Below, in pieces: positions 4,011-47,100 of a stretch of 64,000 bases of DNA (its first letter is position 1; each line of letters opens with the position of its first letter). Both the position numbers and the translations under genes were made by a program. The notes below the pieces were generated by a model. The model was given only the letters and a program-made list of their open reading frames with translations. It had not been told where the DNA came from and ran no database searches. Source of the stretch: a virus (Duplodnaviria; Heunggongvirae; Uroviricota; Caudoviricetes); IMG/VR virus record IMGVR_UViG_3300031873_001030. One strand, given 5' to 3'.

Positions 4011-4895
4011 ATGGCACTATGGGATAGGGAAGAAAGAAAGCATACGGAAAATAAAGTATTGCCACTCAAGGATATAGTATTTGATGAGAACATATATCCA
4101 AGACAAAGTTCATGGTGGCAAACTTCGTATAAATATGCCGAAGAGATGAAAGCAGGCGCAAGGTTTCCTCCAATCACAGTAGGTTTTGTGAATGGAAGAT
4201 ACGTGCTTGTGGATGGGAAGCATAGGAATGACGCACTTCTGATGAATAAGGAGACACATACATCAGTAGTAGTTCTCTATGGTTACACTTTGGATGAACT
4301 CTATATTGAAGCTGTAAAACTCAATAGGGCTCACGGTGTAGGACTTACTTCTTTCGACAAGGTCAAGATAATCAAGAGACTTGAAGATATGAAATATTCA
4401 TTGGGAGACATAGCCACGATAGTCCAGATTCCTTTGGGAAGCATAGAGAAATTTGTAGCACAGAGGATTACGTTAAATCCATTAGGACAAGTCACAGTAT
4501 TGAAATCTCCTCTCAAGTTTATGGCAGGAGGAACTATAACGATGACTGACGAAGAGCAAGATACTCTAAGTGTGAGGAGTGAGATAAGTCTGGTAAATCA
4601 GATGACACAGATATTCTCAAATCCGAAGATGCTAAGGGTTGATATAACATTCGTTGATGCTATCGAGAAGCTTTACCAACTGATTCAAGATTTCCTCAAA
4701 GAACAGAAAATTTTGAATGGAGCTGGAAATACAATAGAAGAAGTTCCAAAAGAGAAAATATACAAGAAAAGAGGAAGACCTAAGAAAATCAAGACTGAAA
4801 GTGAGACTTCAGAACCAAAGAAAAAGGGAAGACCTAAAGGTTCTAAGAACAAGCTTAAAGAACTTGATGTCAGTAACGTCAAAGAACAAGCATAA
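4011..4895 (+). CDS. ParB-like nuclease-domain protein with C-terminal AT-hook motifs
   Basis: N-terminal region with VDGKHRNDAL resembles the ParB/Srx catalytic motif; C-terminus carries two KRGRPKK/KKGRPKG AT-hooks. Confidence 0.55.
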   Translation: MALWDREERKHTENKVLPLKDIVFDENIYPRQSSWWQTSYKYAEEMKAGARFPPITVGFVNGRYVLVDGKHRNDALLMNKETHTSVVVLYGYTLDELYIEAVKLNRAHGVGLTSFDKVKIIKRLEDMKYSLGDIATIVQIPLGSIEKFVAQRITLNPLGQVTVLKSPLKFMAGGTITMTDEEQDTLSVRSEISLVNQMTQIFSNPKMLRVDITFVDAIEKLYQLIQDFLKEQKILNGAGNTIEEVPKEKIYKKRGRPKKIKTESETSEPKKKGRPKGSKNKLKELDVSNVKEQA

Positions 4896-5798: not shown

Positions 5799-5816
5799 AA
5801 TGTATCGTTAACCAAA

Positions 5817-5858
5817 ATTCCATTAACATATGTTAATGAGAAAAGATAAGAAATAATG
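5817..5858 (+). repeat. 42-bp direct repeat copy 2 (contains palindrome core 5823-5836)
   Basis: Identical to 5472-5513. Confidence 0.85.
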
Positions 5859-6150
5859 AAAATCAAAAAGAGGTAAAAAAAATGAGATACTATTGCCGAG
5901 AACATAAGGAAAGTTTTGAGACTACTGTCTGCTTTCTTCAACATGTTCTTAAGGAACACCATAGCATATTTGACATCACAAGTGAATAGATATTTATGTG
6001 ATGAGGTGGGGTCAAGTCAGGTCGGTTCTGGTTGCGATACTGACCTTATCACACCAAACCTCACCTTACCAGGGTTCGATAAGTTGTGATTTGGTAGGAT
6101 AGGGTAAAGTTATTTATATTTGAAACACGTAATTATATGTCAAGGAAGTC

Positions 6151-6223
6151 TGACAACAAACCTCAGAGTTGGAACTTTCTGGTTCTAAAAAATCACTTAG
6201 TTCTTTCTGCGAGGTTTGTTGTC
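6151..6223 (+). repeat. 73-nt stem-loop element, copy B (stem TGACAACAAACCTC / GAGGTTTGTTGTC)
   Basis: Embedded in the satellite; stem co-varies with copies A and D. Confidence 0.6.
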
Positions 6224-6948
6224 TTTGTATCGACTTTATCATTCGGTCAGGTAAGGCGGGTTCAGGTGGGGTATAGTTTCGGTTCGGTATGGTAGTTTGA
6301 CATTTATACGATACGGTAAGGTGAGGTTTGGAAGATAGTCTTTATGATTCGGTAAGGTGGGGTCAGTTGCGATTGTGTGAGGTTTGATTTGGTTTGGTCT
6401 GATTTGGTAGTTTGAGGCAAGGTAAAGTTAATTCCTTTTATATGATAAGGTATGGTCTAATTCGGTCTGGTTTGGTTGGATGGGCTACGTTCCGATAAGG
6501 TTCGGTATGGTAATATGACACTTATACGATTAGGTTCGGTCAGGTAAGGTTGGGTCAAATGCGATTAGGTAAGATGAGGTTCGGTCAGATACGGCAAGAT
6601 ATGGTATAATATTTATTCGGTTAGGTGAGGTCAGTTTAGGTCTGGTCTGATGTAGTTTGGCATGGTAGTATAACACTTATCGGTTTGGTTCGGTATGATG
6701 CGATATGGTCAGATTCGGTTTGATATGGTAGTATGACACTTATTGGTCAGGTTTAGTAGAATATGGTAAGGTTCGGTTCGATACGGTGGGATATGGTCAG
6801 TTAGGATTTGGAAAAGGAGAGAATAGTTTCAAGAAAGAATCAGCCCTTGGGTGAGTCCCTTGAAATGAAAAATGCCGCACCAGAGATGGTGATATTAGGT
6901 AAACTAATATAAATCAAGGTTCGAACCGTCCGTTAGGCAACGGTTCTC

Positions 6949-7020
6949 TGACAACAAACCTCAGAGTTAGAACTTACTGGTTCTTGAAATCAGTTGGTTC
7001 TTTCTGCGAGGTTTGTTGTC
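6949..7020 (+). repeat. 73-nt stem-loop element, copy C
   Basis: Embedded in the satellite; loop AGAGTTAGAACTTACTGGTTCTTGAAATCAGTTGGTTCTTTCTGC. Confidence 0.6.
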
Positions 7021-7963
7021 TTCCTCCAAAAAATTACTTATTCGATAGGGTAAGGATAGGTATGCTATGTCAGGGTCAGGTTTGGTTAGGTTTGATATGG
7101 TATGGTAAGGTAATTTAATACTTTTGCTTTGGTGCAATATGGTAATATTCGGTAGGGTATAATTCGGTGGGTTCCGTTAAGGTATGGTAAGGATTATATT
7201 TATGAAATACGTATATAGGAATAGAGATGATGAAAGGGAACTTAAATTTGAAGTTCCAGATAGTATGTCAATAGCTGAAGCATTTGAATTTGCAGAAAGG
7301 AAATGCGCCAGCATGGAGTGATTATAATTTTTGGTCTGGTAGGGTGCGATTAGGTACGATTGGGTTTGGTCAGATAGGATATGATATGGACTATTGTAAT
7401 TTTCGGTTAGGTGCGGTTAGGTCTGGTTTGGTGCGTTCGAGGTGTGGTCAGATAGGATATGGAACTTTCATTCGTACTTTTCGGTAGGGCATTATTCGGT
7501 CCGATATGGTCTGGTCAATTCCGCTCTGGTTCGGTTAGATAGTGTATGGTGATATATGTTAAGTCGTGGTTTGGTTCGGTCTGGTAGAATGAGGTTTATC
7601 TTTTTTGATAGGCTATCGTTCGGTCTGGTGAGGTATGGTTCGGTAGGGTTCGGCAAGGTTTAATCCTTTTAGGAAAGGGTCTTTGATTCATTCCCTTTCT
7701 ATAAAAGATTTATCCCACGTCTTCGGGATTTATCCCTTCTTTCAGAAGGGATTTATATATCACCGAATCTCGTTTTAAACGAGATTCACAAAGAACTTGT
7801 GGTCGGGTCTGATACGGCAAGGTGTGATACGGTAAGATAAGATTGGGTTATGGTCTGGCAAGGAACTTTTTACTTATATGGTTTGGCACGGTCCATTCCG
7901 TTGCGTTTAGGTGTGGTAAGGCTTGGTATGGTTACGATTTATTTGGCGTAACATATGTAATAC

Positions 7964-13723: not shown

Positions 13724-14488
13724 TTATCCTTTCCAATTATAATAATTTTTGCAATCATCTTTTGATTCGCACTGTTGGCATGATGTATCATCCTTATCAA
13801 AAAGTGTGAAGCAGTCATGAAAAGGTGGTCTCTTTATTATTTTTTTATTGCCCATGAACAATCCTAATTCGACCAATCTATCTGAACATTCGCTATCTTT
13901 AGCAGATATCACTTCTTCTAATTTGATTTTAAATAGCGCTAGCAAGACCATCGCTTGTCCTCTTTCTTTGCTCTCTCCTTTTGGAAAGTGCTTGTCCAGT
14001 TCATCAATAAGTTCTTCTATTACATTTGCAGACAAGATTTCAGAACAAGGATGCTGTTCTGTCCCTCTTGTTTTACAGGATGAATTGTTTGGGTTATCTG
14101 ACTTGCCTTTCAAAAAATTATTACGAACCTTTTTGAAATCATTAATCTCACCTTCAAGAGCTATGCCTCCGCTCCAATGTAATTGCTTCAGTTTTCTCAT
14201 GTTTTCCAATCTCTTGATTTCACTGTCCAGAATCTTAATTACATTGTCTTTTGCAATTCTTTTTTCATATCTGCTTGGATTGAATGAACACTTTTCCCAG
14301 CTCCTTACTTTCCCATCATTATATTCTCCATCCTCAGAAGTTCCGCATATCAAATCACAATGCAGGGCGACTAATCCCAAATCATTATCAGCATGTTTGC
14401 AACTGCCACAAGTCATCAGTTCTTCTTTGTTGCAACTTTTTATTATTATTTTTTTCATATTCATTTTCATTTTTTCATCTTCTGTCAT
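13724..14488 (-). CDS. Cys-rich hypothetical protein (254 aa)
   Basis: Multiple Cys clusters (CGSCKH...HCDLICG; C-terminal CQQCESKDDC). Confidence 0.45.
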   Translation of the reverse strand: MTEDEKMKMNMKKIIIKSCNKEELMTCGSCKHADNDLGLVALHCDLICGTSEDGEYNDGKVRSWEKCSFNPSRYEKRIAKDNVIKILDSEIKRLENMRKLKQLHWSGGIALEGEINDFKKVRNNFLKGKSDNPNNSSCKTRGTEQHPCSEILSANVIEELIDELDKHFPKGESKERGQAMVLLALFKIKLEEVISAKDSECSDRLVELGLFMGNKKIIKRPPFHDCFTLFDKDDTSCQQCESKDDCKNYYNWKG

Positions 14489-21728: not shown

Positions 21729-22961
21729 TTGGAGATGAAAGTGATGAACATAGGTGAAGTTGAAATTGGAAAACCTTGGCAATATAAGGAAAATTCTATT
21801 GGAATTGTTGTTCCACTTTTAAGGAAGAATCAAGTCAAAAGAAATTATAAGACAGTTGAGGAAGTTAAGGAGATGATGAATATCAAGGATACTGGAAATA
21901 TAGACAGTGTTGAAATTTCCTCAAAAGTCAATGAACCAGTTTTTATCAGGAGCGGGACGATGTTTGAAGGGGTTGGAACTCAGAGCAGGACGCCAACAAC
22001 TAGCATTGTCATAATTCCAAATCAACAGCCTATGAAAGTTCCTGTAAAATGCATACATGCTTCTCATCACATATCTTCTGGAAGCAACTTTAAAGTCGCA
22101 GGTAGTATTCCCCACTATATTGGTTATGCAGCTTTTGGACCAAGGGCTAGTCAATCTCGTGTGTGGTCTTCTGTAAGCATGCAAGCAAGTTCTGTAAGCC
22201 ATCATGCTATGCATCTTTCTGACAATCTTATCGATAACGTAAGAAAAATAGAAACTTTTAAGAAAGATATTGGCGAAGCAGTTAAAAACTATCCGATATT
22301 GAAAAATCAAGTTGGTATAGTTGTTCTTGATTTTAACGGGGTTGTTGGTCTTGAGATGTTTGATAATTCTGAATCTTGGGCAGCAGTATGTAAAGACATA
22401 ATCAATAAGTATTCTGACACAATAACACAGCTTGTTGACAGTCCTTTATTTTCATTGAATGAAGAAAGCATAAAACCAAAGATATTGGAATTCTTGAAGA
22501 AGCTGACAGAAGCAAAAGAAGAGATTATCTTTCAAGCAGATGTGATGAAAACAATCTTATTGGAAAATGGAGATATCATTGGAGAATGTACGAGTATTGA
22601 TGGCAGGATGATACATCTCATGGGAATGAAAAAGAAGGATGAGGAAAGGACATATGGTTCAGTTGCTCCAAATAATTTACCATTTACACCACAAAATTGG
22701 ACAACCAGAGGTTCTAACTATTCTGTGCTATCTGCACTTGGAGATGGAAGTAGGAGATTTTCAGAAATAGAGAAAACAACTAAATTATCCCCAGCTACAG
22801 TAAGCAAAAATTTAAGCAAGTTCCATTCTCTTGGATTTATTGACAAGTCAGCAGAAATAATAAACAACAAGGCCCGTGAAGTTTATAGCCTTACAAGCAA
22901 CGGTAAAAATGCATTTTTTACTATGCATGATGTCAGGAAGAAATTGATGAAGCTTGGATAA
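21729..22961 (+). CDS. putative transcriptional regulator (410 aa) with C-terminal winged helix-turn-helix
   Basis: C-terminal RRFSEIEKTTKLSPATVSKNLSKFHSLGFIDK resembles ArsR/MarR-type wHTH; N-terminal domain unrecognised. Confidence 0.4.
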   Translation: MEMKVMNIGEVEIGKPWQYKENSIGIVVPLLRKNQVKRNYKTVEEVKEMMNIKDTGNIDSVEISSKVNEPVFIRSGTMFEGVGTQSRTPTTSIVIIPNQQPMKVPVKCIHASHHISSGSNFKVAGSIPHYIGYAAFGPRASQSRVWSSVSMQASSVSHHAMHLSDNLIDNVRKIETFKKDIGEAVKNYPILKNQVGIVVLDFNGVVGLEMFDNSESWAAVCKDIINKYSDTITQLVDSPLFSLNEESIKPKILEFLKKLTEAKEEIIFQADVMKTILLENGDIIGECTSIDGRMIHLMGMKKKDEERTYGSVAPNNLPFTPQNWTTRGSNYSVLSALGDGSRRFSEIEKTTKLSPATVSKNLSKFHSLGFIDKSAEIINNKAREVYSLTSNGKNAFFTMHDVRKKLMKLG

Positions 22962-23109
22962 GCCTTAAATACTTTAACAGCCAATATTTTTTAGATATCA
23001 AATGAGAATCTACGATAATGTCACGATATAAGTTACACATTATGTGTAACCTCTCTATCTTTGCCTAGCAAGTGAAGACAGGGACATAAAAGAAAAAGAG
23101 GTAGATTCA

Positions 23110-23427
23110 ATGGTATTAATGTATAGGCAGGGAGACTTGCTTTTCAGAAAAGTAGAGAAGATTCCTTCTAATGCAGATGTCGTTAAAAATGGCGTTATTC
23201 TAAAAGGTGAAGCGACTGGACATGCTCACAAGCTTGTAGGCGGTACAGTATTTTCACAGTCAACTGGATTCATGGGAAATGGTCCAAGACAAATGTTCCT
23301 TCAAGTTGAAAAGAGCGGAAGAGTTGTTCATGAAGAACATAAAACAATTGAACTTGAAATTGGGTTCTACATCGTAATCCGTCAACGTGAATATAACCCA
23401 TACAGAATCTCATTAGTCGGGGATTAG
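23110..23427 (+). CDS. hypothetical protein (105 aa)
   Basis: ORF track; coupled to the next gene. Confidence 0.35.
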   Translation: MVLMYRQGDLLFRKVEKIPSNADVVKNGVILKGEATGHAHKLVGGTVFSQSTGFMGNGPRQMFLQVEKSGRVVHEEHKTIELEIGFYIVIRQREYNPYRISLVGD

Positions 23428-24054
23428 ATGATGGACGAATTCAAGAACACAATGAAAGGATTCTTTCACAGTTTTGATTATCTTCCTGAAGTGTTCAAGA
23501 CTCTTCATATCATAAGGCTAGTTCCAGGAAAGTTCGAGGTCAAGATGAAGCAGCCAATGATAATCCTTGGAAACCTGAGATTCCTGAATGAGACAAAACA
23601 TAGATGGCAGGAATACAATTTCGAAACTTTCTTCCTCAAAAAGAGAATTCCAGATTGCCAATGCAAAGAAGTCATGGATGCTGCAAAGGAATACATCCTA
23701 TTCAAAAGACTGCATGAGAACCAGAAAATCAGTGCAAGAGAAATAATGAATTGCAAAAATCTCGAATTGAGGAGAGCATTACTTGAAAGGTTTGGTTATG
23801 AGAAAATGTTGAATGAGCTTGGTGGACATATGATAGATGCAGAAGGAAATTACATTCTTTTCAAAATGGATTTCAGGGAAGTAAATGAATCTGTAAAATT
23901 AAATGAGGATGTAAAACTTTTGAAGATGAAGGATTCCTCAACAGAAAGATGGTATGTATTAAGGGTTCCTCCAAATGTAAAAAATTGCACTGAAGCTGTG
24001 TCATGGTCTTTCAATACGCCAGTTGAAGAATACAAATTAGAAGTGGAAACATAG
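23428..24054 (+). CDS. hypothetical protein (208 aa)
   Basis: ORF track; ends at the tRNA-like fragment. Confidence 0.4.
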   Translation: MMDEFKNTMKGFFHSFDYLPEVFKTLHIIRLVPGKFEVKMKQPMIILGNLRFLNETKHRWQEYNFETFFLKKRIPDCQCKEVMDAAKEYILFKRLHENQKISAREIMNCKNLELRRALLERFGYEKMLNELGGHMIDAEGNYILFKMDFREVNESVKLNEDVKLLKMKDSSTERWYVLRVPPNVKNCTEAVSWSFNTPVEEYKLEVET

Positions 24055-24100
24055 TGCGTGTGACAGGATTTGAACCTGTAAGGCACTAAGCAACGGATAT
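24054..24100 (-). other. tRNA 3'-half-like fragment (T-arm ACAGGTTCAAATCCTGT + CACACGCA) without a matching 5' acceptor strand
   Basis: Perfect T-stem-loop on the minus strand but no complementary 5' strand within 300 nt; possible att-site remnant or split tRNA. Confidence 0.3.
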
Positions 24101-24415
24101 CCAAGTCCTAATCGTTTAAGTTTACTCTTGGTTTGAGCCTTTGAGTTTGGGCCTCTAAGTCCGCCTATCTTTTAAATAATTATATATGCTGTAATATATA
24201 TTATGAAAAAGCGAAAACTAATTTAACTGTTGAAATTAAAGTTATTGGATATGTCTTACTGTAAAGCATGCAGAATATGCCTTCCTTTCTTAATTCATCA
24301 TGCAATTTTATAATTAAGAAGGTTATAATGTTGACTTTGATACTCTTCTTTCCAGCACAAGCTCATATCTTTTTAATACCTTCCTTATTGCAGCAATGAT
24401 ACTTATCTTTTTCTC

Positions 24416-24479
24416 TTAACATATGTTAATCAGTGATGCAGCATAATGCAAAATTCCTTCAGTCTTTAACATATGTTAA
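24416..24479. repeat. pair of palindrome cores (24416-24429, 24466-24479) with a 36-nt spacer
   Basis: Read in sequence; intergenic between the tRNA fragment and tRNA-Pro. Confidence 0.9.
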
Positions 24480-24601
24480 TGTCAAATTAGAAATGCAATA
24501 CGATTGTTAACAAGAAAGTTAACAAAGTCTCACCTGCCAGAATTGCACCAGCATCTACGAGGCTACAGCTCGTTGTTCTACTGTTGAACTAAGGCGAGTT
24601 G

Positions 24602-24674
24602 TGGGGATGCTGAGATTTGAACTCAGATTATTCGCTTCCAGAGCGAAGGTTCTAACAAGTTATACTACATCCCC
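24602..24674 (-). tRNA. tRNA-Pro (anticodon UGG); D-arm non-canonical by eye
   Basis: Minus-strand read GGGGATG...TTCGC-TCTGGAA-GCGAA...CTGAG-TTCAAAT-CTCAG-CATCCCC-A; acceptor, anticodon and T arms perfect. Confidence 0.6.
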
Positions 24675-24677
24675 AAG

Positions 24678-24751
24678 GGAGAATAGAGGGATTTGAACCC
24701 TCTCTAACAAGTTCACAGCTTGACGTGCTCGCCTACTACACCATATTCTCC
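24678..24751 (-). tRNA. tRNA-His (anticodon GUG) with genome-encoded G-1
   Basis: G-1:C73 pair; acceptor GAGAATA/TATTCTC; D-stem GTGT/GCAC; anticodon loop CTGTGAA; T-arm GAGGG-TTCAAAT-CCCTC; 3 nt from tRNA-Pro. Confidence 0.7.
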
Positions 24752-25212
24752 ATTTTATTATGTTCTTCTCTATGGCAATTTGCACATAGAAGTTTGCATT
24801 TCTGCAATTCTTTTCGTATCACCTCGAGACTATTATGCCATATTCTGGATATTTCATATTTCTTTTCTCCGTTCATATGATGAAATTCAAGTGCTGCGAA
24901 ACATTTGTTATATCCACATTTTTGACATTTACCTCCAAATTCCATTTTCATAATTTTTGTTTTTTCTTGGTTTTTACGCTTTTGTGCTATATACCACAAA
25001 TGTCTCTGAGGGAGAGATGATTTTTGTTTATGTTGTTTTATATATTTTCTCATATATTCTCTATGATATTTTTTCCTTTTTTCTCTGTTTTCAGGGTTTG
25101 ACAACCAAATTTTCCATCGTTCTTTTTCTTGCTCACGGTGTGATTTTCTATATAATCTATTTATTTCACACAATCGTTCTTTGTTTTTTTCATAATATTT
25201 TTTACTGGTCAT
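24736..25212 (-). CDS. HNH endonuclease (158 aa); final 5 codons overlap the 5' end of tRNA-His
   Basis: HNH core CQKCGY...LEFHHMNG...N...CANCHREEHN; basic K/R-rich N-terminus; stop TAG at 24736-24738 lies inside tRNA-His. Confidence 0.6.
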   Translation of the reverse strand: MTSKKYYEKNKERLCEINRLYRKSHREQEKERWKIWLSNPENREKRKKYHREYMRKYIKQHKQKSSLPQRHLWYIAQKRKNQEKTKIMKMEFGGKCQKCGYNKCFAALEFHHMNGEKKYEISRIWHNSLEVIRKELQKCKLLCANCHREEHNKMENMV

Positions 25213-25255
25213 ATAATGTAATTGTTTAATACCATTTATATTTGTTGTTGAACTA

Positions 25256-25330
25256 CGCTCTGGGCAAGACTCGAACTTGCAATTTCTCCGTTAACAGCGG
25301 AGCGCTTGTACCTGTTTAAGCTGCCAGAGC
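25256..25330 (-). tRNA. tRNA-Asn (anticodon GUU)
   Basis: GCTCTGG-CA-GCTT-AAACAGGTAC-AAGC-G-CTCCG-CTGTTAA-CGGAG-AAAT-GCAAG-TTCGAGT-CTTGC-CCAGAGC-G; all stems canonical. Confidence 0.75.
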
Positions 25331-25333
25331 AAG

Positions 25334-25437
25334 TACTCCCCGAATGATTCGAACATTCGTCTCTTGGTTTCTCCAAGTTTCAGATTCTTGTTGAAATTAT
25401 CAAAGCCAAGCATCTTTGTCCACTGGACGAGGGGAGT
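25334..25437 (-). tRNA. tRNA-Gln (anticodon UUG) with A1:U72 pair and a roughly 31-nt intron at position 37/38 (intron about 25368-25398)
   Basis: Acceptor ACTCCCC/GGGGAGT; T-arm GAATG-TTCGAAT-CATTC; anticodon stem CTTGG/CCAAG with loop CTTTGA|intron|A; D-arm fit only approximate. Confidence 0.45.
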
Positions 25438-25469
25438 ATATTGATTGTAGTTCTTTTTAAAAACTATGG

Positions 25470-25545
25470 ACACAAGCGGGAATCGAACTCGCATCTCTTT
25501 CTTGCAAGGGAAGTATCCTACCATTAAACGATTGGCCCGTCATTG
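25470..25545 (-). other. tRNA-like sequence with T-loop TTCGATT that I could not fold into a canonical cloverleaf
   Basis: GCGAG-TTCGATT-CCCGC followed by TTGTGTCCA; no matching 5' acceptor strand found nearby. Confidence 0.2.
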
Positions 25546-25713
25546 AAGAAAAAAGAACTAGCTCTATTGATTTGCCTTATGGGCGGGCTGTTGATTATAT
25601 GCTTCAATAGACATATTAGAAAATTTAGTCTTGATGATTGATTTGATTTTGTATTATGTGATATATAGAATGCAATATATATTTTAGAAGCATTATTTTC
25701 TAGATTTATCCCT

Positions 25714-26385: not shown

Positions 26386-26466
26386 TCTCCGAAATCGGGA
26401 AGGTTACAGATTCACTGGAAACCAGCGAAGCATTGTCGATGCTATGAAATCCTTCCCAGTAGGAGA
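26386..26466. ncRNA. candidate structured small RNA (Y-RNA-like?) upstream of the Ro60-like gene
   Basis: TCTCC-GAAATC-GGGAAGG...CCTTCCC-AGTA-GGAGA long terminal stem with internal loop; inner hairpins CAG-ATTCA-CTG and AGCAT-TGTCG-ATGCT; local GC well above background; strand undetermined. Confidence 0.3.
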
Positions 26467-26598
26467 TAAATTTATTTGTGCAGATAATCTTAAATACTTT
26501 AACAACCGATATAATTGTATCTCTCATACAGCTATGGGATTCATAATACAACAACAGGATGTAGTACAGTTTCCGTAGCGATTTTGGAGGGTACATTT

Positions 26599-26859
26599 AT
26601 GGATACCATCACGCTATATATACTTAGAACAAAGCCAGAGACACATTTCTATGTTGGAATTACTAAAGACCTTGATAAGAGATTAGAACAGCATAAAAAT
26701 AATCCAAATGTCTCTTGGGTAAAAAGAAGAAACTTTAAATTTGATTTAGTATGGAGAGAGAAATTTCCTGATTTGAAATCTGCAAGGAAAAAGGAGAAAT
26801 ATTATAAGAAAATGGAAAGGAAAAGACTCTTAAAAATCATTGGGATAAAAGGAGTGTGA
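26599..26859 (+). CDS. small GIY-YIG nuclease-domain protein (paralog 1; track ORF starts at 26515, likely true start at 26599)
   Basis: FYVGITKDLDKRLEQH...KKEKYYKKMERKRLLKII; GGAGGG 6 nt upstream of 26599; paralog at 35982. Confidence 0.55.
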   Translation: MDTITLYILRTKPETHFYVGITKDLDKRLEQHKNNPNVSWVKRRNFKFDLVWREKFPDLKSARKKEKYYKKMERKRLLKIIGIKGV

Positions 26860-26863
26860 TGGT

Positions 26864-28279
26864 ATGGAACTAAACAAAGGTTCAAAAAGAACGAGAAAAG
26901 TAATTAATCCTGAAGGTTCTATAGTATTGAAACGTTCAGATGAAATCCAGCTATATCTTGAAGCAAGCAATCTCAACATAAAGGAAGATAAGTTCTATCA
27001 GAGTGCTAAGGACAAGCTGGCAAGCTTGATAAAGATGGCTAGGGAAGCCAATCAGGCATACGTCTTTGGTCTTGGAAGATTCTTAACTGACAACGGATTG
27101 AAACTTTCTCCAGTTGTGTTATATTCAGTACTGTCTGACAGACATGTTCCAATTAATGCAAGTGCAATAAAGACATTCAACACTCCTCAAAGAATAGCAG
27201 AAGCTGTATCATTGCAGAATCTTAAGATAGTTAAATTGAACAACCAATTCAAGAAAAAGATTCTTAAGAAAGCCTTGGAAAACATGTCAGAATTTACTTT
27301 GAGAAAGAACAAGATGCTTAAGAGAAAAGTCAAGGAAAAGGACTTGATTAAACTTTTGAGGCCTAAGCCAGCAAATGCAGAAATGGCAAAGCTATACAAG
27401 GCAATTATAGAAGATGACAAGCTTTCAAAGATGAAGGAGACTGAAACATTTGTAAGAGTGAAGTCTTCAAAAGAAATGAACACTAAAGATAAGCTTGATT
27501 ATTTGACAAATAACGTAGACAGGCTTCCAATAAATGAATTGATAAGAAATCTTAAGTTCATCTCTGAAAATGCAGACTTCAGGAAAGACTTTGAATTGAA
27601 GAGCAAAGTGATAGCAAAATTGCAGAATATAAAGGACATGAGGTTCTTGAACGTTTTTGATTTGATAACCACTGTGGTTTATGTTCCAGACTTCAGCAAG
27701 GCACTGTCAGAAGTTGTAAAGAAATTTTGCGATGATGTTAAAGCTAAGTTTGACTACAATGAAAGTGCAACTGTATTATTTGACTTGTCTGGAAGTATGG
27801 AAGGGGAGGGAATAGAAAAAGGTTTTAAGTACTTGGTACTGTTTGCAAATATATTTGGCAATTTGAAATTGAGATGCTTTAGTGAAGAATTGCTTAAGGA
27901 CACTTACCAGAATGTCATCACTGACATAAATAAAGGAAATTACAAGATTGCATTGAACAAGCTTGACACTATCGGTGGAACTGCATTGCTTGATTCTTTG
28001 GACAAACTTATAGATGAGGGAAAGACTGAATCTAATATAATCATTATAAGCGATGAAGTGAGCTGGCTTGAAGGAGATGACTTGAGTGTGAGAATAAAGG
28101 AAATTTCAGACAAGCTTAAGGGAAAGAAAGTGATACTGGTAAATCCTGTAGTTTATAAGGGAACAGTATTCAGGGACAATATAATTGCATTTGCAAGCCT
28201 TACCTCAAATGTCATTTACAATCTGATGATAGGAACAAAGCCAGAAGCATTTGTAAAGATGATAAAAGAATATAAGTGA
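26864..28279 (+). CDS. rsr: Ro60/TROVE + vWA protein (Rsr-like)
   Basis: C-terminal vWA with MIDAS DLSGSM...GGTALLDSL; N-terminal segments IKEDKFYQSAKDKLASLIKMA and LPINELIRNLKFISENA parallel the Ro60 TROVE segments [21 protein letters not shown] and PLTALLRNLGKMTANS (recalled from memory). Confidence 0.55.
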   Translation: MELNKGSKRTRKVINPEGSIVLKRSDEIQLYLEASNLNIKEDKFYQSAKDKLASLIKMAREANQAYVFGLGRFLTDNGLKLSPVVLYSVLSDRHVPINASAIKTFNTPQRIAEAVSLQNLKIVKLNNQFKKKILKKALENMSEFTLRKNKMLKRKVKEKDLIKLLRPKPANAEMAKLYKAIIEDDKLSKMKETETFVRVKSSKEMNTKDKLDYLTNNVDRLPINELIRNLKFISENADFRKDFELKSKVIAKLQNIKDMRFLNVFDLITTVVYVPDFSKALSEVVKKFCDDVKAKFDYNESATVLFDLSGSMEGEGIEKGFKYLVLFANIFGNLKLRCFSEELLKDTYQNVITDINKGNYKIALNKLDTIGGTALLDSLDKLIDEGKTESNIIIISDEVSWLEGDDLSVRIKEISDKLKGKKVILVNPVVYKGTVFRDNIIAFASLTSNVIYNLMIGTKPEAFVKMIKEYK

Positions 28280-44138: not shown

Positions 44139-47100
44139 TTGCCCAATTTGGAGGGTTTTGTAATGGCAAATAGTATTTTTGGTCAGCCTCAGCCAAATCC
44201 ATTTTCACCAGGCACGACATTGCCGTCATCAAATGTAAGTGTGACGCCAAGTATGCCCATTGGTGGATTGACTGTAGGATTAGGAGGAAGTGGAAATGTT
44301 TATTATGGAGGAGCGCCTGCTGGAGGAGTTGGTCAGACTACAACAACAACTGGAGGTCCTGCGATTTATATTCCTCCACAGGAGACTGCAAAAGCAGCAG
44401 AAAAAACAATAACTCCTGCTTTGATTCCTGAAATAAAACCGCCAACTTTAAAAGTTGGTGTCGGCGGATTGGTAGAAGGTTTGGGAAAATCTGGTAATGT
44501 ATATGAAGGTGGTGTGCTTGTTGGAGGTACTACTCCATGGGGTCCTGTAGTTAAGGAAGGTGGTGTCAGTTATGTCCCAACTGGAAGGACAGCTGAAACT
44601 GGAGAGACAATTTATTCTGGAACTCAGATAAGTTCTGCAACACCTATTGGAACTTTTGTGCCTGCAAAGAGAATTGAAATAACTCCACTGATGCCAGAGA
44701 TTAGTGTACAACCAGCTACAGCTGGTGCTATAGGTCTTTCATTTCCTGCAGGTGTTTTGTCTGTAAAATCTGGTCCAGTTGATGTGAGCAAACTTTCTCC
44801 AGATGTGCAGACTGCGTTGGGAAATCTTCAAGGAAAGGTGCAGGCTGAATATCCAGGATTCAAGCTTGCAAGTTGGACTCGTGAAGGTGATGAGCTGAAA
44901 GGTGTTTTGGAACCTGTGAAGTATGTCTCACTTGGAACTGATGTTACGAAAGCGACTGCTGCCATAAAGGATTTGGGATTGAAAGAAGGTGATTATAAAT
45001 TATATACTGGAATTGGTGGGGATTATCAGCTTGTGACTGATAAGGTGTCAAGCCAGAAATACGTGAGTGGTCTTCTTTCCAGTTATTCAGTTATTCCTAT
45101 AACTGGGTATGGACAGTATAGAGGGTCTGATGAGAGGATTGCATTGAAGTTTCTTGATAAGGAAGGTTATATCAAAGATGGTGTGATAAGCAAAGATGTT
45201 CAAGTGATAGGGGATATAGGAGTAGGAGGAACTGGTGCGATGATAGTTTTAAAGGGAAGTACAAAGAGTTCTGAAGATTTGTCAAAGACTTATTTTTCTT
45301 CCTTGACTGAAGTGCAGAAGGAAGATACTGCGATGGCAAGAGGAGAGTTGCAGATTGCTCAGGAAAAGGAACTTTTGAGACAACCTGGTATGAGTGTTGA
45401 AAAGGGAGCTGCTTGGTGGAATTTGAATGTTGGTCCTTATATGCTTTCTCCAAAGGACCCTCTTGGTCTGAGGAGTGCTTACATAGGAGTTGAAGGTTTG
45501 GTAAAAGGAACTCCTGTCAGTGTCATACAAAAGGACATAGAAGCTAGCAGGCTTTCTGCAGAACAGGAATTTCTTCAGAGAAAATATATGGGAGAGTCTT
45601 GGACTAAATCATTATGGGAAGCTCCTGCAACGCAGCCTTTGAAAGTTGCTGCTACTTGGTATGGCGGTGGTCTTTTGTTGGGAGGTGCTGCTGGAGTTCT
45701 TAAAACTGCTGAAGTAGGTGCTGGTATAGTATCAAAAGCTCCATGGCTTGCAACTACAGGAAGAGTTATTTCAACTGCTGGAAAAGTTGCGACAAGTGTT
45801 CCAGGACAAGTTGTAATTGGTTCAGGATTGTATGGTTTTACTGAAAGAGGAAATATAATGGCACTTGCAAAAGGAGGTGTTCCAAGAGACATTGTTCCTG
45901 GAATGATTTTTGACGCATCACAATTTGGATTTGCATATGGCGGTGCAGCTGCAGGTTTTCCAGTTGGTTATTCTAGAGGTGCTGGATTGGGTTATGCTTT
46001 CAAGCCTGGTGCATTGCCTCCATCTGAAACATTCGTGGCAGAAATCAGAGGGACTGGAGTATCTGGAATTCCAGGTGAATTGCAAGGATTGAAACTTGGG
46101 ACAAGGGTTGCTGGAGAAGTTCCAAAGGGTTTTGTTCCAAAAGGATTTAGTGAAGGTGTTCCTTATAGGGCGTTCTTGCAGGAGGGTGTGACAGTTACAA
46201 GAGCTGGAGAAGTTGTACCTTCTGGGACTTTGATGCCAACTATTGCAGAAATGGAACCTGCAAAACCTTTGATGCAGAGGATTGCCACTGCAATGACAAA
46301 GCCAAGCGAATTGATTCCTAAGATGCTTCCTGGAGGACCTACTGTTGAAGCTCCTTTTCTTGAATCAATCAGATATGGTGAAGAAAAGATAGCGAAAGGA
46401 GGAACTAAGGATATTTATGCTGCAGGTTATCAGCCAGGAACTACAATATGGTCAAGATTGAAGATGCCTGTTGAAGGAGCGCAGTATGGGATTGCTGAAG
46501 GTTTTAAGACTGTTACAGCTGAGAGTCCTCTTGCTTCGTTGACAGAAAAATACACTACAAGGATGGCATTGAGAGCTACTGGCGCTCCTATTGAAGCGGG
46601 AGATGTTGTTCCAGTGAAAATAATGGCAAAGACAGATTTTATTGTAAATGATGAAGGGATAGCTGCGATGTTGAAATCTGGAAAGAATCTTGCAGATATT
46701 GAAAAATTGAAAGGTGCTGATATAATACAGCGTGATATTGAATTTGCAGATAAGCCTGCTGTAAGGTACACTAGATTTATTGATAAGGAAACTGGAAAAT
46801 CTTTGGTTGTGTTGAAGCAGACTGCAGCTCCTACAATAGAGGAAGTTGTTGCTTTGGCAGAGGAAGGAAAGACTTTGATAAAACCTGAATATGTTGGAGG
46901 AAAGGTTGCAGGCTATAGTATAAGAGGTACTGAAATAGTTGGAGAGGGGAAAGAATTTGCAGGAGGAGTGCGTTATAAAAAGGGTGTTGAAGTAGTTGGT
47001 AAGGAACAAGTGACAGGAATAGCTCTTGATGATAAGACATTTAACGCATTGATGGATAAATATGGAAACAAGATATTGAGGGTTTCATCTCCGACAACTG

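What the first reader, a model, noticed from the sequence alone, without database searches (positions are those of the whole stretch)
24054..25545. Minus-strand tRNA array (Pro-His ... Asn-Gln) with an intron-containing tRNA-Gln, an HNH endonuclease gene terminating inside tRNA-His, and orphan tRNA 3'-half-like fragments
tRNA-Pro and tRNA-His are 3 nt apart, and tRNA-Asn and tRNA-Gln are also 3 nt apart. tRNA-Gln has the archaeal A1:U72 pair and an intron of about 31 nt after position 37. Between the two pairs lies a 158-aa HNH endonuclease gene whose last five codons (GAG AAT ATG GTG TAG) are the first 15 nt of tRNA-His, as if an HNH-bearing element inserted flush against the tRNA. Two further sequences (24054-24100 and 25470-25545) have perfect T-arms but no matching 5' acceptor strands, resembling the partial tRNA duplications left at integration sites or the 3' halves of split tRNAs. 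The palindrome pair 24416-24479 lies in between.
Basis: partly seen in the sequence, partly recalled or inferred. Interest (0 to 1): 0.55.

Follow-up and report, generated by a model that had tools for sequence, protein, structure and literature searches.

The report
Archaeal mobile-element tRNA array with HNH
A virus-like mobile element of an uncultivated archaeon carries a tight row of tRNA genes, one with a classic archaeal intron and one selfish HNH nuclease gene wedged between two tRNAs; this is a known arrangement, and the two supposed "orphan tRNA halves" are a degenerate full-length tRNA look-alike and a lone T-arm, lying beside a Ro60-like RNA-binding protein gene.

Summary
Most are 3 nt apart. 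The intron fits the archaeal bulge-helix-bulge motif at 37/38, so the anticodon is UUG; ARAGORN's "stop/UUA" call is a 2-nt shift. The HNH gene ends inside tRNA-His. Homologous HNH genes sit the same way in bacterial phage tRNA arrays (S-WAM2, FelixO1-like Sl26, CR3), and an unrelated HNH_3 gene does so in relatives of this element. It is therefore a free-standing homing-endonuclease insertion. The orphan reading is mostly wrong. 25468-25538 is a complete but mismatched tRNA-like gene. 24055-24079 is a true lone T-arm, but I found no 5' partner, no matching tRNA and no integrase, so neither att site nor split tRNA is supported. The palindrome belongs to a family of 25 exact and 2 one-mismatch copies in the contig held. 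Unnoticed context: the neighbouring 471-aa protein is a phage-type Ro60/TROVE homolog. It is flanked by two copies of a covarying stem-capped RNA that always accompanies this gene in relatives, where some copies carry YrlA-like tRNA mimics. Archaeal tRNA clusters with TROVE genes, pseudo-tRNAs and HNH genes are published. Verdict: new member of a known kind.

The parts
25468..25538 (-). tRNA-Ala(UGC)-like gene. It is full length but degenerate: G3xG70 and C4xU69, one mismatch each in the anticodon and T stems, no G3:U70, and C73.
   Evidence: Rfam RF00005 37.5 bits, model positions 1-71. ARAGORN finds it only with -ps.
25550..25560 (-). Leader strand (TAGTTCTTTTT) of an 11-bp perfect stem that clamps the Ala-like gene.
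   Evidence: the repeat finder pair I8, 100% complementary, 91 nt between the arms. Only 3 of 5000 shuffles reach 11 bp.
25448..25458 (-). Trailer strand (AAAAAGAACTA) of the same stem.
25334..25437 (-). tRNA-Gln(UUG), A1:U72, containing an intron.
   Evidence: ARAGORN -i; bulge-helix-bulge register worked out.
25369..25399 (-). 31-nt intron between tRNA positions 37 and 38. The bulge-helix-bulge motif has a central helix C32-G, U33-A, U34.G, U35.G and bulges GA|U and AA|A.
   Evidence: 0.56% of shuffled introns fit the same register. The motif definition is taken from PMC4090602.
25256..25330 (-). tRNA-Asn(GUU)
   Evidence: 57.7 bits
24736..25212 (-). Free-standing HNH endonuclease gene (158 aa). 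Its stop codon TAG is tRNA-His nt 13-15.
   Evidence: PHROG 3106 HNH, E 3.9e-22. The CxxC...HH...CxxCH...H motif is conserved. 234 homologs were found.
24678..24751 (-). tRNA-His(GUG), including the encoded G-1 (24751) opposite C73.
   Evidence: 61.4 bits
24602..24674 (-). tRNA-Pro(UGG)
   Evidence: 55.9 bits
24528..24598 (-). tRNA-Tyr(GUA). C1-G72 and a 4-nt variable loop make it the archaeal/eukaryal type.
   Evidence: 52.9 bits
24416..24479 (.). Two copies of the 14-bp palindrome TTAACATATGTTAA, members of a dispersed family.
24055..24079 (-). Lone T-arm (ACAGG-TTCAAAT-CCTGT) plus CACACGCA. It has no 5' acceptor strand and abuts the stop codon of the convergent DUF6745 gene.
   Evidence: It is not hit by the Rfam tRNA or YrlA models or by model R1.
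26864..28279 (+). Context: Ro60/TROVE + vWA homolog (471 aa).
   Evidence: phmmer against PDB 9KOP/9L5Y, E 3e-6. The family profile gives E 2.7e-28 over the full length. The MIDAS residues D307, S309 and S311 are invariant.
26522..26589 (+). Context: stem-capped RNA unit (CAUACAG - 9-bp stem - UUCAUA ... stem - GAUUUUGGAG) upstream of the GIY-YIG and Ro60-like genes.
   Evidence: 62.9 bits
26387..26466 (-). Context: second unit of the same RNA family, divergent from the first, upstream of the ERCC4-HhH nuclease gene.
   Evidence: 58.5 bits
25714..26358 (-). Context: ERCC4 + HhH2 nuclease gene immediately upstream of the tRNA array.
   Evidence: ERCC4, E 3.2e-26
26599..26859 (+). Context: GIY-YIG nuclease gene directly upstream of the Ro60-like gene.

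Best explanation
This is the tRNA gene array of a virus-like mobile element of an uncultivated archaeon. The order on the minus strand is Ala-like, Gln, Asn, [HNH], His, Pro, Tyr.

Inferred mechanism. The genes are transcribed on the minus strand and matured by host enzymes: RNase P and RNase Z cut at the 3-nt spacers, and CCA is added after transcription because none is encoded. The Gln precursor needs the host splicing endonuclease, which cuts the bulge-helix-bulge motif after position 37 and before position 38. A host ligase then joins the exons to give anticodon UUG. The tRNAs would supplement the host pool for an AT-rich genome.

The HNH gene is a free-standing homing endonuclease that inserted between tRNA-Asn and tRNA-His. 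It has a TATA-like stretch in the 43-nt spacer and borrows its stop codon from the D-arm of tRNA-His. RNase P cleavage at His would therefore remove the stop from any read-through message. That would make HNH expression and tRNA-His maturation from one transcript mutually exclusive.

The 'orphan' at 25468-25538 is a complete but decayed, or repurposed, tRNA-like gene. The lone T-arm at 24055-24079 is most likely a relic of a tRNA or tRNA-mimic gene truncated where the convergent DUF6745 module abuts.

Shown: gene calls, geometry, motif fit, homology and comparative context. Inferred: transcription, processing, splicing, homing and function.
For: tRNA calls come from two methods.

Archaeal identity marks are read from the alignments: Tyr has C1-G72 and a short variable loop, Gln has A1-U72, His has an encoded G-1 opposite C73, and no CCA is encoded.

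The bulge-helix-bulge motif is in the canonical register, with the first two anticodon bases in the 4-bp helix as the motif is defined in PMC4090602. Only 113 of 20000 shuffled introns do as well.

Relatives sharing the Ro60-like gene (45-56% identity) also carry archaeal-type tRNAs. These include an A1-U72 tRNA-Met with a 66-nt intron at 37/38 and arrays of 20-22 tRNAs.

HNH: PHROG HNH E 3.9e-22 with all catalytic and zinc residues. Homologs sit inside phage tRNA arrays on the same strand, with the stop inside or next to the following tRNA. S-WAM2 overlaps by 10 nt and its stop is U8-A9-G10; Sl26 overlaps by 7 nt; CR3 lies between Asn and Glu. In jumbo-phage contig L005 a homolog lies flush against tRNA-Ser but on the opposite strand. 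In relatives of this element an HNH_3 gene of a different family overlaps tRNA-Gly by 7 nt and tRNA-Ala by 19 nt.

The window and two independent assemblies are identical here.

Published precedent: archaeal tRNA clusters on mobile elements have a TROVE gene in 20 of 29 cases, many pseudo-tRNAs, HNH genes and some introns (PMC6333295). T4 SegB is a homing endonuclease in a tRNA cluster (PMC2330249).
Against: There are no expression data. Splicing, processing and HNH activity are untested.

The nearest-neighbour minimum-free-energy fold of the Gln precursor is not the cloverleaf plus bulge-helix-bulge (-33.2 against -19.4 kcal/mol), and two of the four pairs in the central helix are G.U.

No close relative lacking the HNH gene was found, so mobility is inferred from geometry and family habit only.

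No capsid, portal or terminase was identified on this contig itself; they were seen only in relative L021.

The 'relic' reading of the lone T-arm is a default, not a demonstration. About 13 kb of the 92-kb contig could not be inspected.
Confidence: 0.75

Rival explanations
1. The degenerate tRNA-Ala look-alike and/or the lone T-arm are functional tRNA-mimic partner RNAs (Y-RNA-like) of the adjacent Ro60/TROVE protein, rather than dead tRNA genes.
For: A Ro60 homolog lies 1.3-2.8 kb away.

In relatives, the gene-free DNA next to this gene holds tandem stem-capped RNA units. Several of these carry a T-arm, a capped acceptor hairpin and a D-arm in the permuted YrlA order. Rfam YrlA hits one of them at 36.5 bits, E 2e-4.

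The window's two canonical units lack a tRNA-like module, whereas bacterial species with Ro60 have at least one Y RNA with such a module (PMC4201824).

The Ala-like gene is clamped by an 11-bp perfect leader/trailer stem (p about 6e-4), which recalls the basal stem of Y RNAs.

The lone T-arm matches the T-arm plus the next 5 nt of unit L015 9636-9748, with one compensatory C-G to U-A change.
Against: Neither element is hit by Rfam YrlA or by model R1 built from the units (E above 10). Neither carries the conserved flanking motifs. The Ala-like RNA has the ordinary tRNA order, not the permuted one. The T-arm has no acceptor hairpin or D-arm. No relative is close enough to show conservation. Pseudo-tRNAs are common in such arrays (PMC6333295).
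Confidence: 0.2
2. The lone T-arm plus 3' acceptor strand is an attachment site: the partial tRNA copy that an integrating element carries or leaves behind.
For: Archaeal viruses commonly integrate into tRNA genes and duplicate the part from the T-arm to the 3' end (PMC4090602). The fragment sits at a boundary between two oppositely oriented gene modules.
Against: No full tRNA with this 3' end exists in the 78.8 kb of the contig held. The exact 21-mer gave one hit in 185,579 GTDB species genomes (not a tRNA), two in JGI metagenomes and one in IMG/VR. These lie in unrelated phage-like contexts and match the number expected by chance. No integrase family was seen in the Pfam scans or in the precomputed annotations of the neighbours.
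Confidence: 0.07
3. The lone T-arm is the 3' half of a split (trans-spliced) tRNA of the Nanoarchaeum type.
For: The host is archaeal and must have a bulge-helix-bulge endonuclease. A TATA-like box lies about 95 nt upstream of the fragment's end (read).
Against: No G[C/U]GUGUG followed by a D-arm occurs on either strand of the 78.8 kb held; the few heptamer matches lie inside coding regions with no D-arm after them. No anticodon-stem 3' strand or leader with a partner can be defined. Rfam gives no partial tRNA hit.
Confidence: 0.04
4. The intron-containing gene is an ochre suppressor tRNA (anticodon UUA), as ARAGORN labels it, hinting at stop-codon recoding.
For: ARAGORN reports 'tRNA-Stop (tta) i(37,31)'. 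Both intron placements leave a 7-nt loop.
Against: That placement puts the cuts at the helix/bulge junctions, not two bases into each 3-nt bulge. A1-U72 is the archaeal tRNA-Gln mark. Relatives carry intron-less tRNA-Gln(UUG) with A1-U72. Long uninterrupted ORFs under the standard code, up to 3752 aa, argue against recoding.
Confidence: 0.04

Closest known systems
tRNA gene clusters on archaeal mobile elements (Morgado & Vicente 2019, PMC6333295)
   Same: Dense archaeal-type tRNA array on a mobile element. A TROVE-domain gene lies alongside (20 of 29 published clusters). tRNA pseudogenes, HNH endonuclease genes and occasional introns are present.
   Different: The published cases come from cultured haloarchaea and methanogens with 12-25 or more tRNAs. 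This one is a short array of 5-6 genes on a 36% GC metagenomic element of unknown host. The accompanying RNA units were not described there.
Free-standing homing endonucleases in phage tRNA clusters (T4 SegB, PMC2330249; HNH genes of FelixO1-like phages, Cronobacter phage CR3 and Synechococcus phage S-WAM2)
   Same: A nuclease gene sits between tRNA genes on the same strand. The same HNH family is involved (31-49% identity in the alignment). The stop codon lies inside or just before the next tRNA.
   Different: The host domain here is archaeal. SegB is GIY-YIG, not HNH. Homing is demonstrated for SegB but not tested here.
Canonical archaeal tRNA introns with the bulge-helix-bulge motif (PMC4090602)
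   Same: Position 37/38, a 4-bp helix flanked by two 3-nt bulges, the first two anticodon bases in the helix, and a 31-nt length within the known 11-129 nt range.
   Different: It is encoded on a mobile element rather than a chromosome, and two of the four helix pairs are G.U.
Ro60 with Y RNAs in bacteria and phages: YrlA (Rfam RF02553, PMC4201824) and phiRo60 with Yrl1/Yrl2 of Thermus phage phiLo (PMC12135203; PDB 9KOP, 9L5Y)
   Same: The neighbouring protein is homologous over its full length to phiRo60 (E 2.7e-28). Small stem-capped RNAs lie directly upstream of the gene. In relatives some of these contain a T-arm, a capped acceptor hairpin and a D-arm in the YrlA order.
   Different: The conserved flanking motifs (CAUACAG...UUCAUA / GAUUUNGG) differ from the GNCGAA/CGAA motif of bacterial Y RNAs. 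Rfam scores are below threshold. The host is archaeal. The window's own two units have no tRNA-like module. Binding is untested.
Split tRNA genes of Nanoarchaeum equitans, and tRNA-derived att sites of fuselloviruses
   Same: An isolated 3' tRNA segment (T-arm plus acceptor 3' strand).
   Different: There is no 5' half, no complementary leader, no matching full tRNA and no integrase. The defining features were tested and not met.

Membership tests
tRNA (Rfam RF00005) | Full cloverleaf scoring above the 29-bit gathering threshold | tested here: met
   Tyr 52.9, Pro 55.9, His 61.4, Asn 57.7 and Ala-like 37.5 bits, all over model positions 1-71. Gln is found only by intron-aware ARAGORN.
tRNA (Rfam RF00005), applied to 24055-24100 | Full or partial cloverleaf match | tested here: not met
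   No tRNA hit at E up to 10. No ARAGORN call on that strand even at -ps70.
Functional tRNA-Ala | G3:U70 identity pair and an intact acceptor stem | tested here: not met
   The alignment shows G3xG70, C4xU69 and C73. The identity rule itself is established knowledge, not tested here.
Archaeal bulge-helix-bulge tRNA intron | 4-bp helix flanked by two 3-nt bulges, at 37/38, with anticodon bases 34-35 in the helix | tested here: met
   Helix C32-G, U33-A, U34.G, U35.G; bulges GA|U and AA|A; outer helix of 2+5 bp. Definition from PMC4090602.
Archaeal bulge-helix-bulge tRNA intron | Excision by the splicing endonuclease and ligation | not testable with these tools
   No RNA data are available.
HNH endonuclease | beta-beta-alpha-metal motif: CxxC ... 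HH ... CxxCH ... H | tested here: met
   C96, C99, H111, H112, C143, N145, C146, H147 and H151 are conserved in alignment A2. PHROG 3106 E 3.9e-22. Pfam PF01844 scores only 15.9 bits, below its 21.4-bit cut-off.
Free-standing homing endonuclease | Insertion in an intergenic spacer of a conserved gene array | tested here: met
   504 nt separate Asn and His, against 3-nt spacers elsewhere. The family shows the same habit in phage arrays.
Free-standing homing endonuclease | Presence/absence polymorphism among close relatives, and cleavage of the empty site | not testable with these tools
   No close relative exists in IMG/VR. The other assemblies are identical.
Split tRNA (3' half) | A separate 5' half whose acceptor strand pairs with CACACGC | tested here: not met
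   No G[C/U]GUGUG followed by a D-arm in 78.8 kb on either strand. About 13 kb of the contig was not held.
tRNA-derived att site | A complete tRNA sharing the same 3' segment, in the element or in a host | tested here: not met
   None in the contig. The 21-mer searches of three collections gave only chance-level hits.
tRNA-derived att site | An integrase gene nearby | tested here: not met
   No integrase family appears in the Pfam scans or the precomputed annotations.
YrlA-type Y RNA (RF02553), applied to the two 'orphans' | T-arm, capped acceptor hairpin and D-arm in permuted order, scoring with the model | tested here: not met
   No YrlA hit in the window at E up to 1, or at E up to 10 in the locus. 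Relatives do hit: L015 at 36.5 bits (E 2e-4) and L023 at 24 bits, both below the 69-bit threshold.
Ro60/TROVE protein (neighbour at 26864-28279) | Full-length homology to a solved Ro60, and a vWA MIDAS motif | tested here: met
   Profile A1 against phiRo60 (9KOP/9L5Y), E 2.7e-28 over positions 16-464. D307, S309 and S311 are invariant. Pfam TROVE is matched by only 1 of 18 members at E 0.0098.

The most novel reading that the evidence does not exclude
The locus is one half of an RNA-centred module of an archaeal virus. In it a phage-type Ro60 homolog works with its own small RNAs. These are the two covarying stem-capped units at 26387-26589 and, as tRNA-mimic partners, the mismatched tRNA-Ala look-alike clamped by an 11-bp leader/trailer stem and perhaps the lone T-arm. 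That would make them the first Y-RNA-like system described for archaea or their viruses. The 'pseudo-tRNAs' reported in archaeal tRNA clusters next to TROVE genes would then be functional decoys or tethers rather than dead genes.
Probability: 0.2. Interest if true: 0.7.

Novelty: new member of a known kind. Interest (0 to 1): 0.4.

Why it matters
As submitted, the finding is a tidy example of known things: tRNA arrays on mobile elements, a canonical archaeal tRNA intron, and a selfish HNH gene parked between tRNAs.

It has three practical uses. First, it assigns an uncultivated, virus-like element of about 92 kb to an archaeal host from tRNA identity marks and the intron alone. Second, it shows a trap in automatic annotation: default ARAGORN and Rfam miss the intron-bearing gene, and ARAGORN with introns calls it a suppressor. 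Third, it shows that the HNH gene's habit of borrowing its stop codon from the next tRNA crosses the bacterial/archaeal virus divide.

The larger value lies next door. A Ro60 homolog with a well-supported, covarying family of small RNAs recurs in a whole group of archaeal virus-like genomes, some with YrlA-like tRNA mimics. Ro60/Y-RNA biology in archaea and their viruses could be tested directly with these sequences.

Tried and rejected
1. att site. I searched the 21-mer GGTTCAAATCCTGTCACACGC in GTDB genomes, JGI metagenomes and IMG/VR. The four hits (L007-L010) are an Oscillospiraceae contig without a tRNA, a phage tRNA-Lys with a long variable arm, and two odd tRNA-like sequences. They share only the T-arm and acceptor strand, at the number expected by chance. 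Rejected as host matches.

2. Split tRNA. I searched for G[C/U]GUGUG, and for one-mismatch versions followed by a D-arm start, in 78.8 kb on both strands. I also looked for partners pairing at 6 of 7 positions or better in the 440 nt upstream. One was found against about 6 expected by chance. Rejected.

3. Close relatives. I looked with single proteins (ERCC4, DUF6745) and with exact tRNA-His and tRNA-Asn 21/22-mers in IMG/VR. Nothing was found. A blastn search of the locus against GenBank phages gave no match. The two other contigs carrying the HNH protein are 100% identical to the window, so no allele lacking HNH could be compared.

4. Rfam YrlA and my own model R1 of the Ro60-associated units were run on the window. 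Neither 'orphan' is hit.

5. The canonical unit motifs (CTCATACAG, TTCATA, GATTTTGGAG) were sought around the orphans. They are absent.

6. Thermodynamic folding of the Gln precursor does not return the cloverleaf. I relied on the motif register instead.

7. The Pfam HNH model alone is not significant for the ORF. PHROGs and the homolog alignment settle it.

8. Codon usage is compatible with tRNA supplementation (Asn 6.9% and Tyr 4.6% of codons; CCA and GCA the top codons in their boxes). It is uninformative without the host.

Full report
What is in the sequence.

The window is identical to part of a 91,950-bp metagenomic contig (ENA ERZ27247974 k141_1406800) and to Logan contigs from SRR9651338. 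It has 36% GC.

ARAGORN and Rfam agree on four minus-strand tRNA genes: Tyr(GUA) 24528-24598, Pro(UGG) 24602-24674, His(GUG) 24678-24750 and Asn(GUU) 25256-25330, at 52.9-61.4 bits. With intron search switched on, ARAGORN adds a gene at 25333-25437 with a 31-nt intron. Rfam adds a full-length match at 25468-25538, covering model positions 1-71 at 37.5 bits against a 29-bit threshold.

The spacers Gln/Asn, His/Pro and Pro/Tyr are each 3 nt, and no CCA is encoded.

The marks are archaeal. Tyr has C1-G72 and a 4-nt variable loop. Gln has A1-U72. His has G-1 encoded opposite C73. The meaning of these marks is established knowledge and was not tested here.

The intron.

ARAGORN calls the intron-bearing gene "Stop (tta)" because it starts the intron inside the anticodon. 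The archaeal splice signal is a 4-bp helix flanked by two 3-nt bulges, in which the first two anticodon bases pair with the intron (PMC4090602).

In that register the sequence gives C32-G, U33-A, U34.G and U35.G. The bulges are G36-A37|U and A-A|A38, followed by an outer helix of 2+5 bp. The intron is 25369-25399 and the anticodon is UUG. Only 113 of 20000 shuffled introns fit this register.

Energy minimisation does not recover this fold (-33.2 against -19.4 kcal/mol), so the call rests on the motif and not on thermodynamics. Relatives carry intron-less tRNA-Gln(UUG) with A1-U72, and another tRNA with a 66-nt intron at 37/38.

The HNH gene.

ORF 24736-25212 (158 aa) fails the Pfam HNH cut-off (15.9 bits). 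It does match PHROG HNH families at E 3.9e-22 and has 234 homologs. It keeps every zinc and catalytic residue (C96, C99, H111, H112, C143, N145, C146, H147, H151).

Its last five codons are tRNA-His nt 1-15, and the non-conserved tail NKMENMV comes from that overlap. It interrupts an array otherwise spaced by 3 nt with 504 nt.

The same family sits in the same way in bacterial phage tRNA arrays:
- In Synechococcus phage S-WAM2 the gene overlaps tRNA-Asn by 10 nt, and its stop is U8-A9-G10 of the tRNA.
- In FelixO1-like phage Sl26 it overlaps tRNA-Ile by 7 nt.
- In Cronobacter phage CR3 it lies between tRNA-Asn and tRNA-Glu.
- In a 191-kb phage contig it lies flush against a 14-tRNA array, but on the opposite strand.

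In relatives of this element (L030/L031), an HNH_3 gene of a different family overlaps tRNA-Gly by 7 nt and tRNA-Ala by 19 nt. T4 SegB is the experimentally proven precedent for a homing endonuclease in a tRNA cluster (PMC2330249).

I therefore read this gene as a free-standing homing endonuclease that takes its stop codon from the next tRNA. Mobility itself could not be tested, because no relative lacking the gene was found.

The two "orphans".

(a) 25468-25538 is not a half. It is a complete cloverleaf with anticodon UGC, but it has G3xG70, C4xU69, one mismatch each in the anticodon and T stems, three G.U pairs in the D stem, no G3:U70 and C73. It is unlikely to accept alanine. That follows from the known identity rule and is an inference. 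Unexpectedly, it is clamped by an 11-bp perfect leader/trailer stem (25550-25560 with 25448-25458), which only 3 of 5000 shuffles reach.

(b) 24055-24079 is a genuine lone T-arm (5-bp stem, loop TTCAAAT) followed by CACACGCA. It ends at the stop codon of the convergent DUF6745 gene.

I extended the sequence to 78.8 kb of the contig. That revealed no further tRNA and no 5' strand G[C/U]GUGUG followed by a D-arm on either strand. The exact 21-mer occurs once in GTDB species genomes (not in a tRNA), twice in JGI metagenomes and once in IMG/VR. All are in unrelated contexts, at about the number expected by chance. No integrase was seen. Neither the att-site reading nor the split-tRNA reading is supported.

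Context that changes the picture.

The 471-aa protein at 26864-28279 has no Pfam hit. It does match the solved Ro60 homolog of Thermus phage phiLo (9KOP/9L5Y) at E 3e-6. A profile of its family matches at E 2.7e-28 over the full length, with an invariant vWA MIDAS motif. That phage protein binds two Y-RNA-like RNAs encoded just upstream of its gene (PMC12135203).

About 90 full-length relatives (43-56% identity) lie on contigs of 30-107 kb. These carry DNA polymerase B, terminase and portal-like genes, an archaeal histone fold, RNA ligases, and tRNA arrays of the archaeal type.

Next to the Ro60-like gene in every one of these loci I found a repeated RNA unit. Its form is yCAUACA, a 7-9-bp stem, UUCAUA, a variable insert, the return strand, then GAUUUNGG. 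The evidence for it:
- A pattern scan found 20 units in 217 kb, against 0 in the reversed sequences and a mean of 0.4 in shuffles.
- All 9 stem pairs show compensatory changes. 96% of cells are paired, against 45-60% when the partner strand is slid.
- A covariance model built from 11 units recovers untrained copies. One lies upstream of a Ro60 homolog only 28% identical, in a 276-kb IMG/VR contig.

Several units carry a T-arm, an acceptor-like hairpin capped by GAAA or UUCG, and a D-arm. That is the permuted order of bacterial YrlA (PMC4201824). Rfam YrlA hits one unit at 36.5 bits (E 2e-4), below the family threshold.

The window has two units: 26522-26589 (+) and 26387-26466 (-). They flank the divergent promoter region of the ERCC4 gene and the GIY-YIG/Ro60 genes, and neither has a tRNA-like insert.

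Neither "orphan" matches these models or motifs. The lone T-arm does resemble the T-arm plus the next five bases of one such unit in L015.

Explanation and rivals.

Best supported (0.75): this is a tRNA array of an archaeal virus-like element, matured by host enzymes. It has one bulge-helix-bulge intron and one homing HNH insertion. The Ala-like gene is a decayed or repurposed tRNA, and the lone T-arm is a truncated relic.

The main rival for the orphans (0.2) is that they are tRNA-mimic partners of the Ro60 homolog. The att site (0.07), the split tRNA (0.04) and the suppressor tRNA (0.04) are each contradicted by a direct test.

Comparison with what is known.

Archaeal tRNA gene clusters on mobile elements have been described with a TROVE gene in 20 of 29 clusters, many pseudo-tRNAs, HNH genes and some introns (PMC6333295). 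Nuclease genes inside phage tRNA clusters are well known. The locus is therefore a new member of a known kind.

What appears undescribed, as far as my literature searches reach, is the conserved RNA family that accompanies the Ro60-like gene in these archaeal virus-like genomes. That lies outside the finding's coordinates and is recorded as a lead.

The palindrome.

TTAACATATGTTAA has 14 exact copies in the window, plus one with one mismatch and one with two (0.9 expected). In the 78.8 kb held there are 24 exact copies and 2 with one mismatch. All lie between -6690 and 24479 in window coordinates, often in pairs 37-66 bp apart, and a ParB-like gene sits among them. It is a dispersed protein-binding site (an operator or a parS-like site), not part of the tRNA locus.

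Noticed in passing
window 26864-28279 (+): The 471-aa protein has no Pfam hit but is a full-length homolog of the Ro60 protein of Thermus phage phiLo (PDB 9KOP/9L5Y). Its family profile scores E 2.7e-28 and the vWA MIDAS motif is invariant. About 90 relatives lie on archaeal virus-like contigs of 30-107 kb.
   Followed up: yes
window 26522-26589 (+) and 26387-26466 (-); L015 9564-9989, L018 9887-9958, L019 9459-9991, L020 2344-2640, L021 9916-9976, L023 9424-9995, L030 8260-9710, L029 4807-4865: A conserved small-RNA family (CAUACAG, a covarying 7-9-bp stem, UUCAUA, an insert, the return strand, GAUUUNGG) is always next to the Ro60-like gene, often in tandem arrays of 2-5. Some copies hold a YrlA-like permuted tRNA mimic; Rfam YrlA scores 36.5 bits (E 2e-4) on L015 9901-9966. 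These are candidate Y RNAs of archaeal viruses.
   Followed up: yes
window 25448-25458 and 25550-25560: An 11-bp perfect inverted repeat clamps the degenerate tRNA-Ala-like gene (3 of 5000 shuffles reach it). The heptamer ATCAATA also occurs just outside both arms.
   Followed up: partly
window 700-24479, and about 6.7 kb upstream of the window in L013: TTAACATATGTTAA occurs 26 times (24 exact) in one third of the contig and never beyond 24.5 kb. It is often paired, and a ParB-like gene (4011-4895) lies among the copies. It may be a parS-like site or an operator. Four copies at 2314-2504 are spaced by 45, 66 and 66 bp inside a called ORF.
   Followed up: partly
window 25333-25437: Annotation trap: default ARAGORN and the Rfam tRNA model miss the intron-bearing tRNA-Gln, and ARAGORN -i mislabels it as a stop-codon suppressor (anticodon tta).
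   Followed up: yes
L023 7785-7925; L030 about 7016-7090 and 13744-13830; L021 about 7862-7942: Relatives hold further unusual tRNAs: an A1-U72 tRNA-Met with a 66-nt intron at 37/38, a tRNA-Gln(UUG) with an aberrant D-arm, a tRNA-Thr(UGU)-like gene with a 14-nt insert, and a tRNA-like gene with an oversized anticodon loop. ARAGORN's default settings miss several of them.
   Followed up: partly
window 21729-24054 (+): A convergent gene module abuts the lone T-arm. It consists of an ARPP-1 domain protein with a winged helix (410 aa), a 105-aa ORF, and a DUF6745 protein.
   Followed up: no
window about 5800-7960: A stretch of about 2.1 kb has no called gene, higher GC (0.405) and reversed AT skew (-0.17). 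It has no tandem repeats and no Rfam hit.
   Followed up: partly
window 44139-48161 and 49389-60647 (+); L011 11197-20276: A run of giant ORFs of 1340, 3752 (four DUF285 repeats, E 2.8e-138), 1736 and more than 1460 aa. These may be surface or adhesion proteins.
   Followed up: no
L007 3916-3936, L008 1210-1230, L009 294-314: Unrelated contigs share the exact 21-mer GGTTCAAATCCTGTCACACGC in sequences that ARAGORN does not call as tRNAs. L009 has the matching 5' strand GCGTGTG about 97 nt upstream, with an odd middle part.
   Followed up: partly
L030 7093-9998, L031, L032: A relative from the same study packs HNH_3, HNH and LAGLIDADG genes into two tRNA arrays (22 tRNAs) flanking its Ro60-like gene. 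An MJ1316 domain protein and an eRF1-like protein lie nearby.
   Followed up: partly
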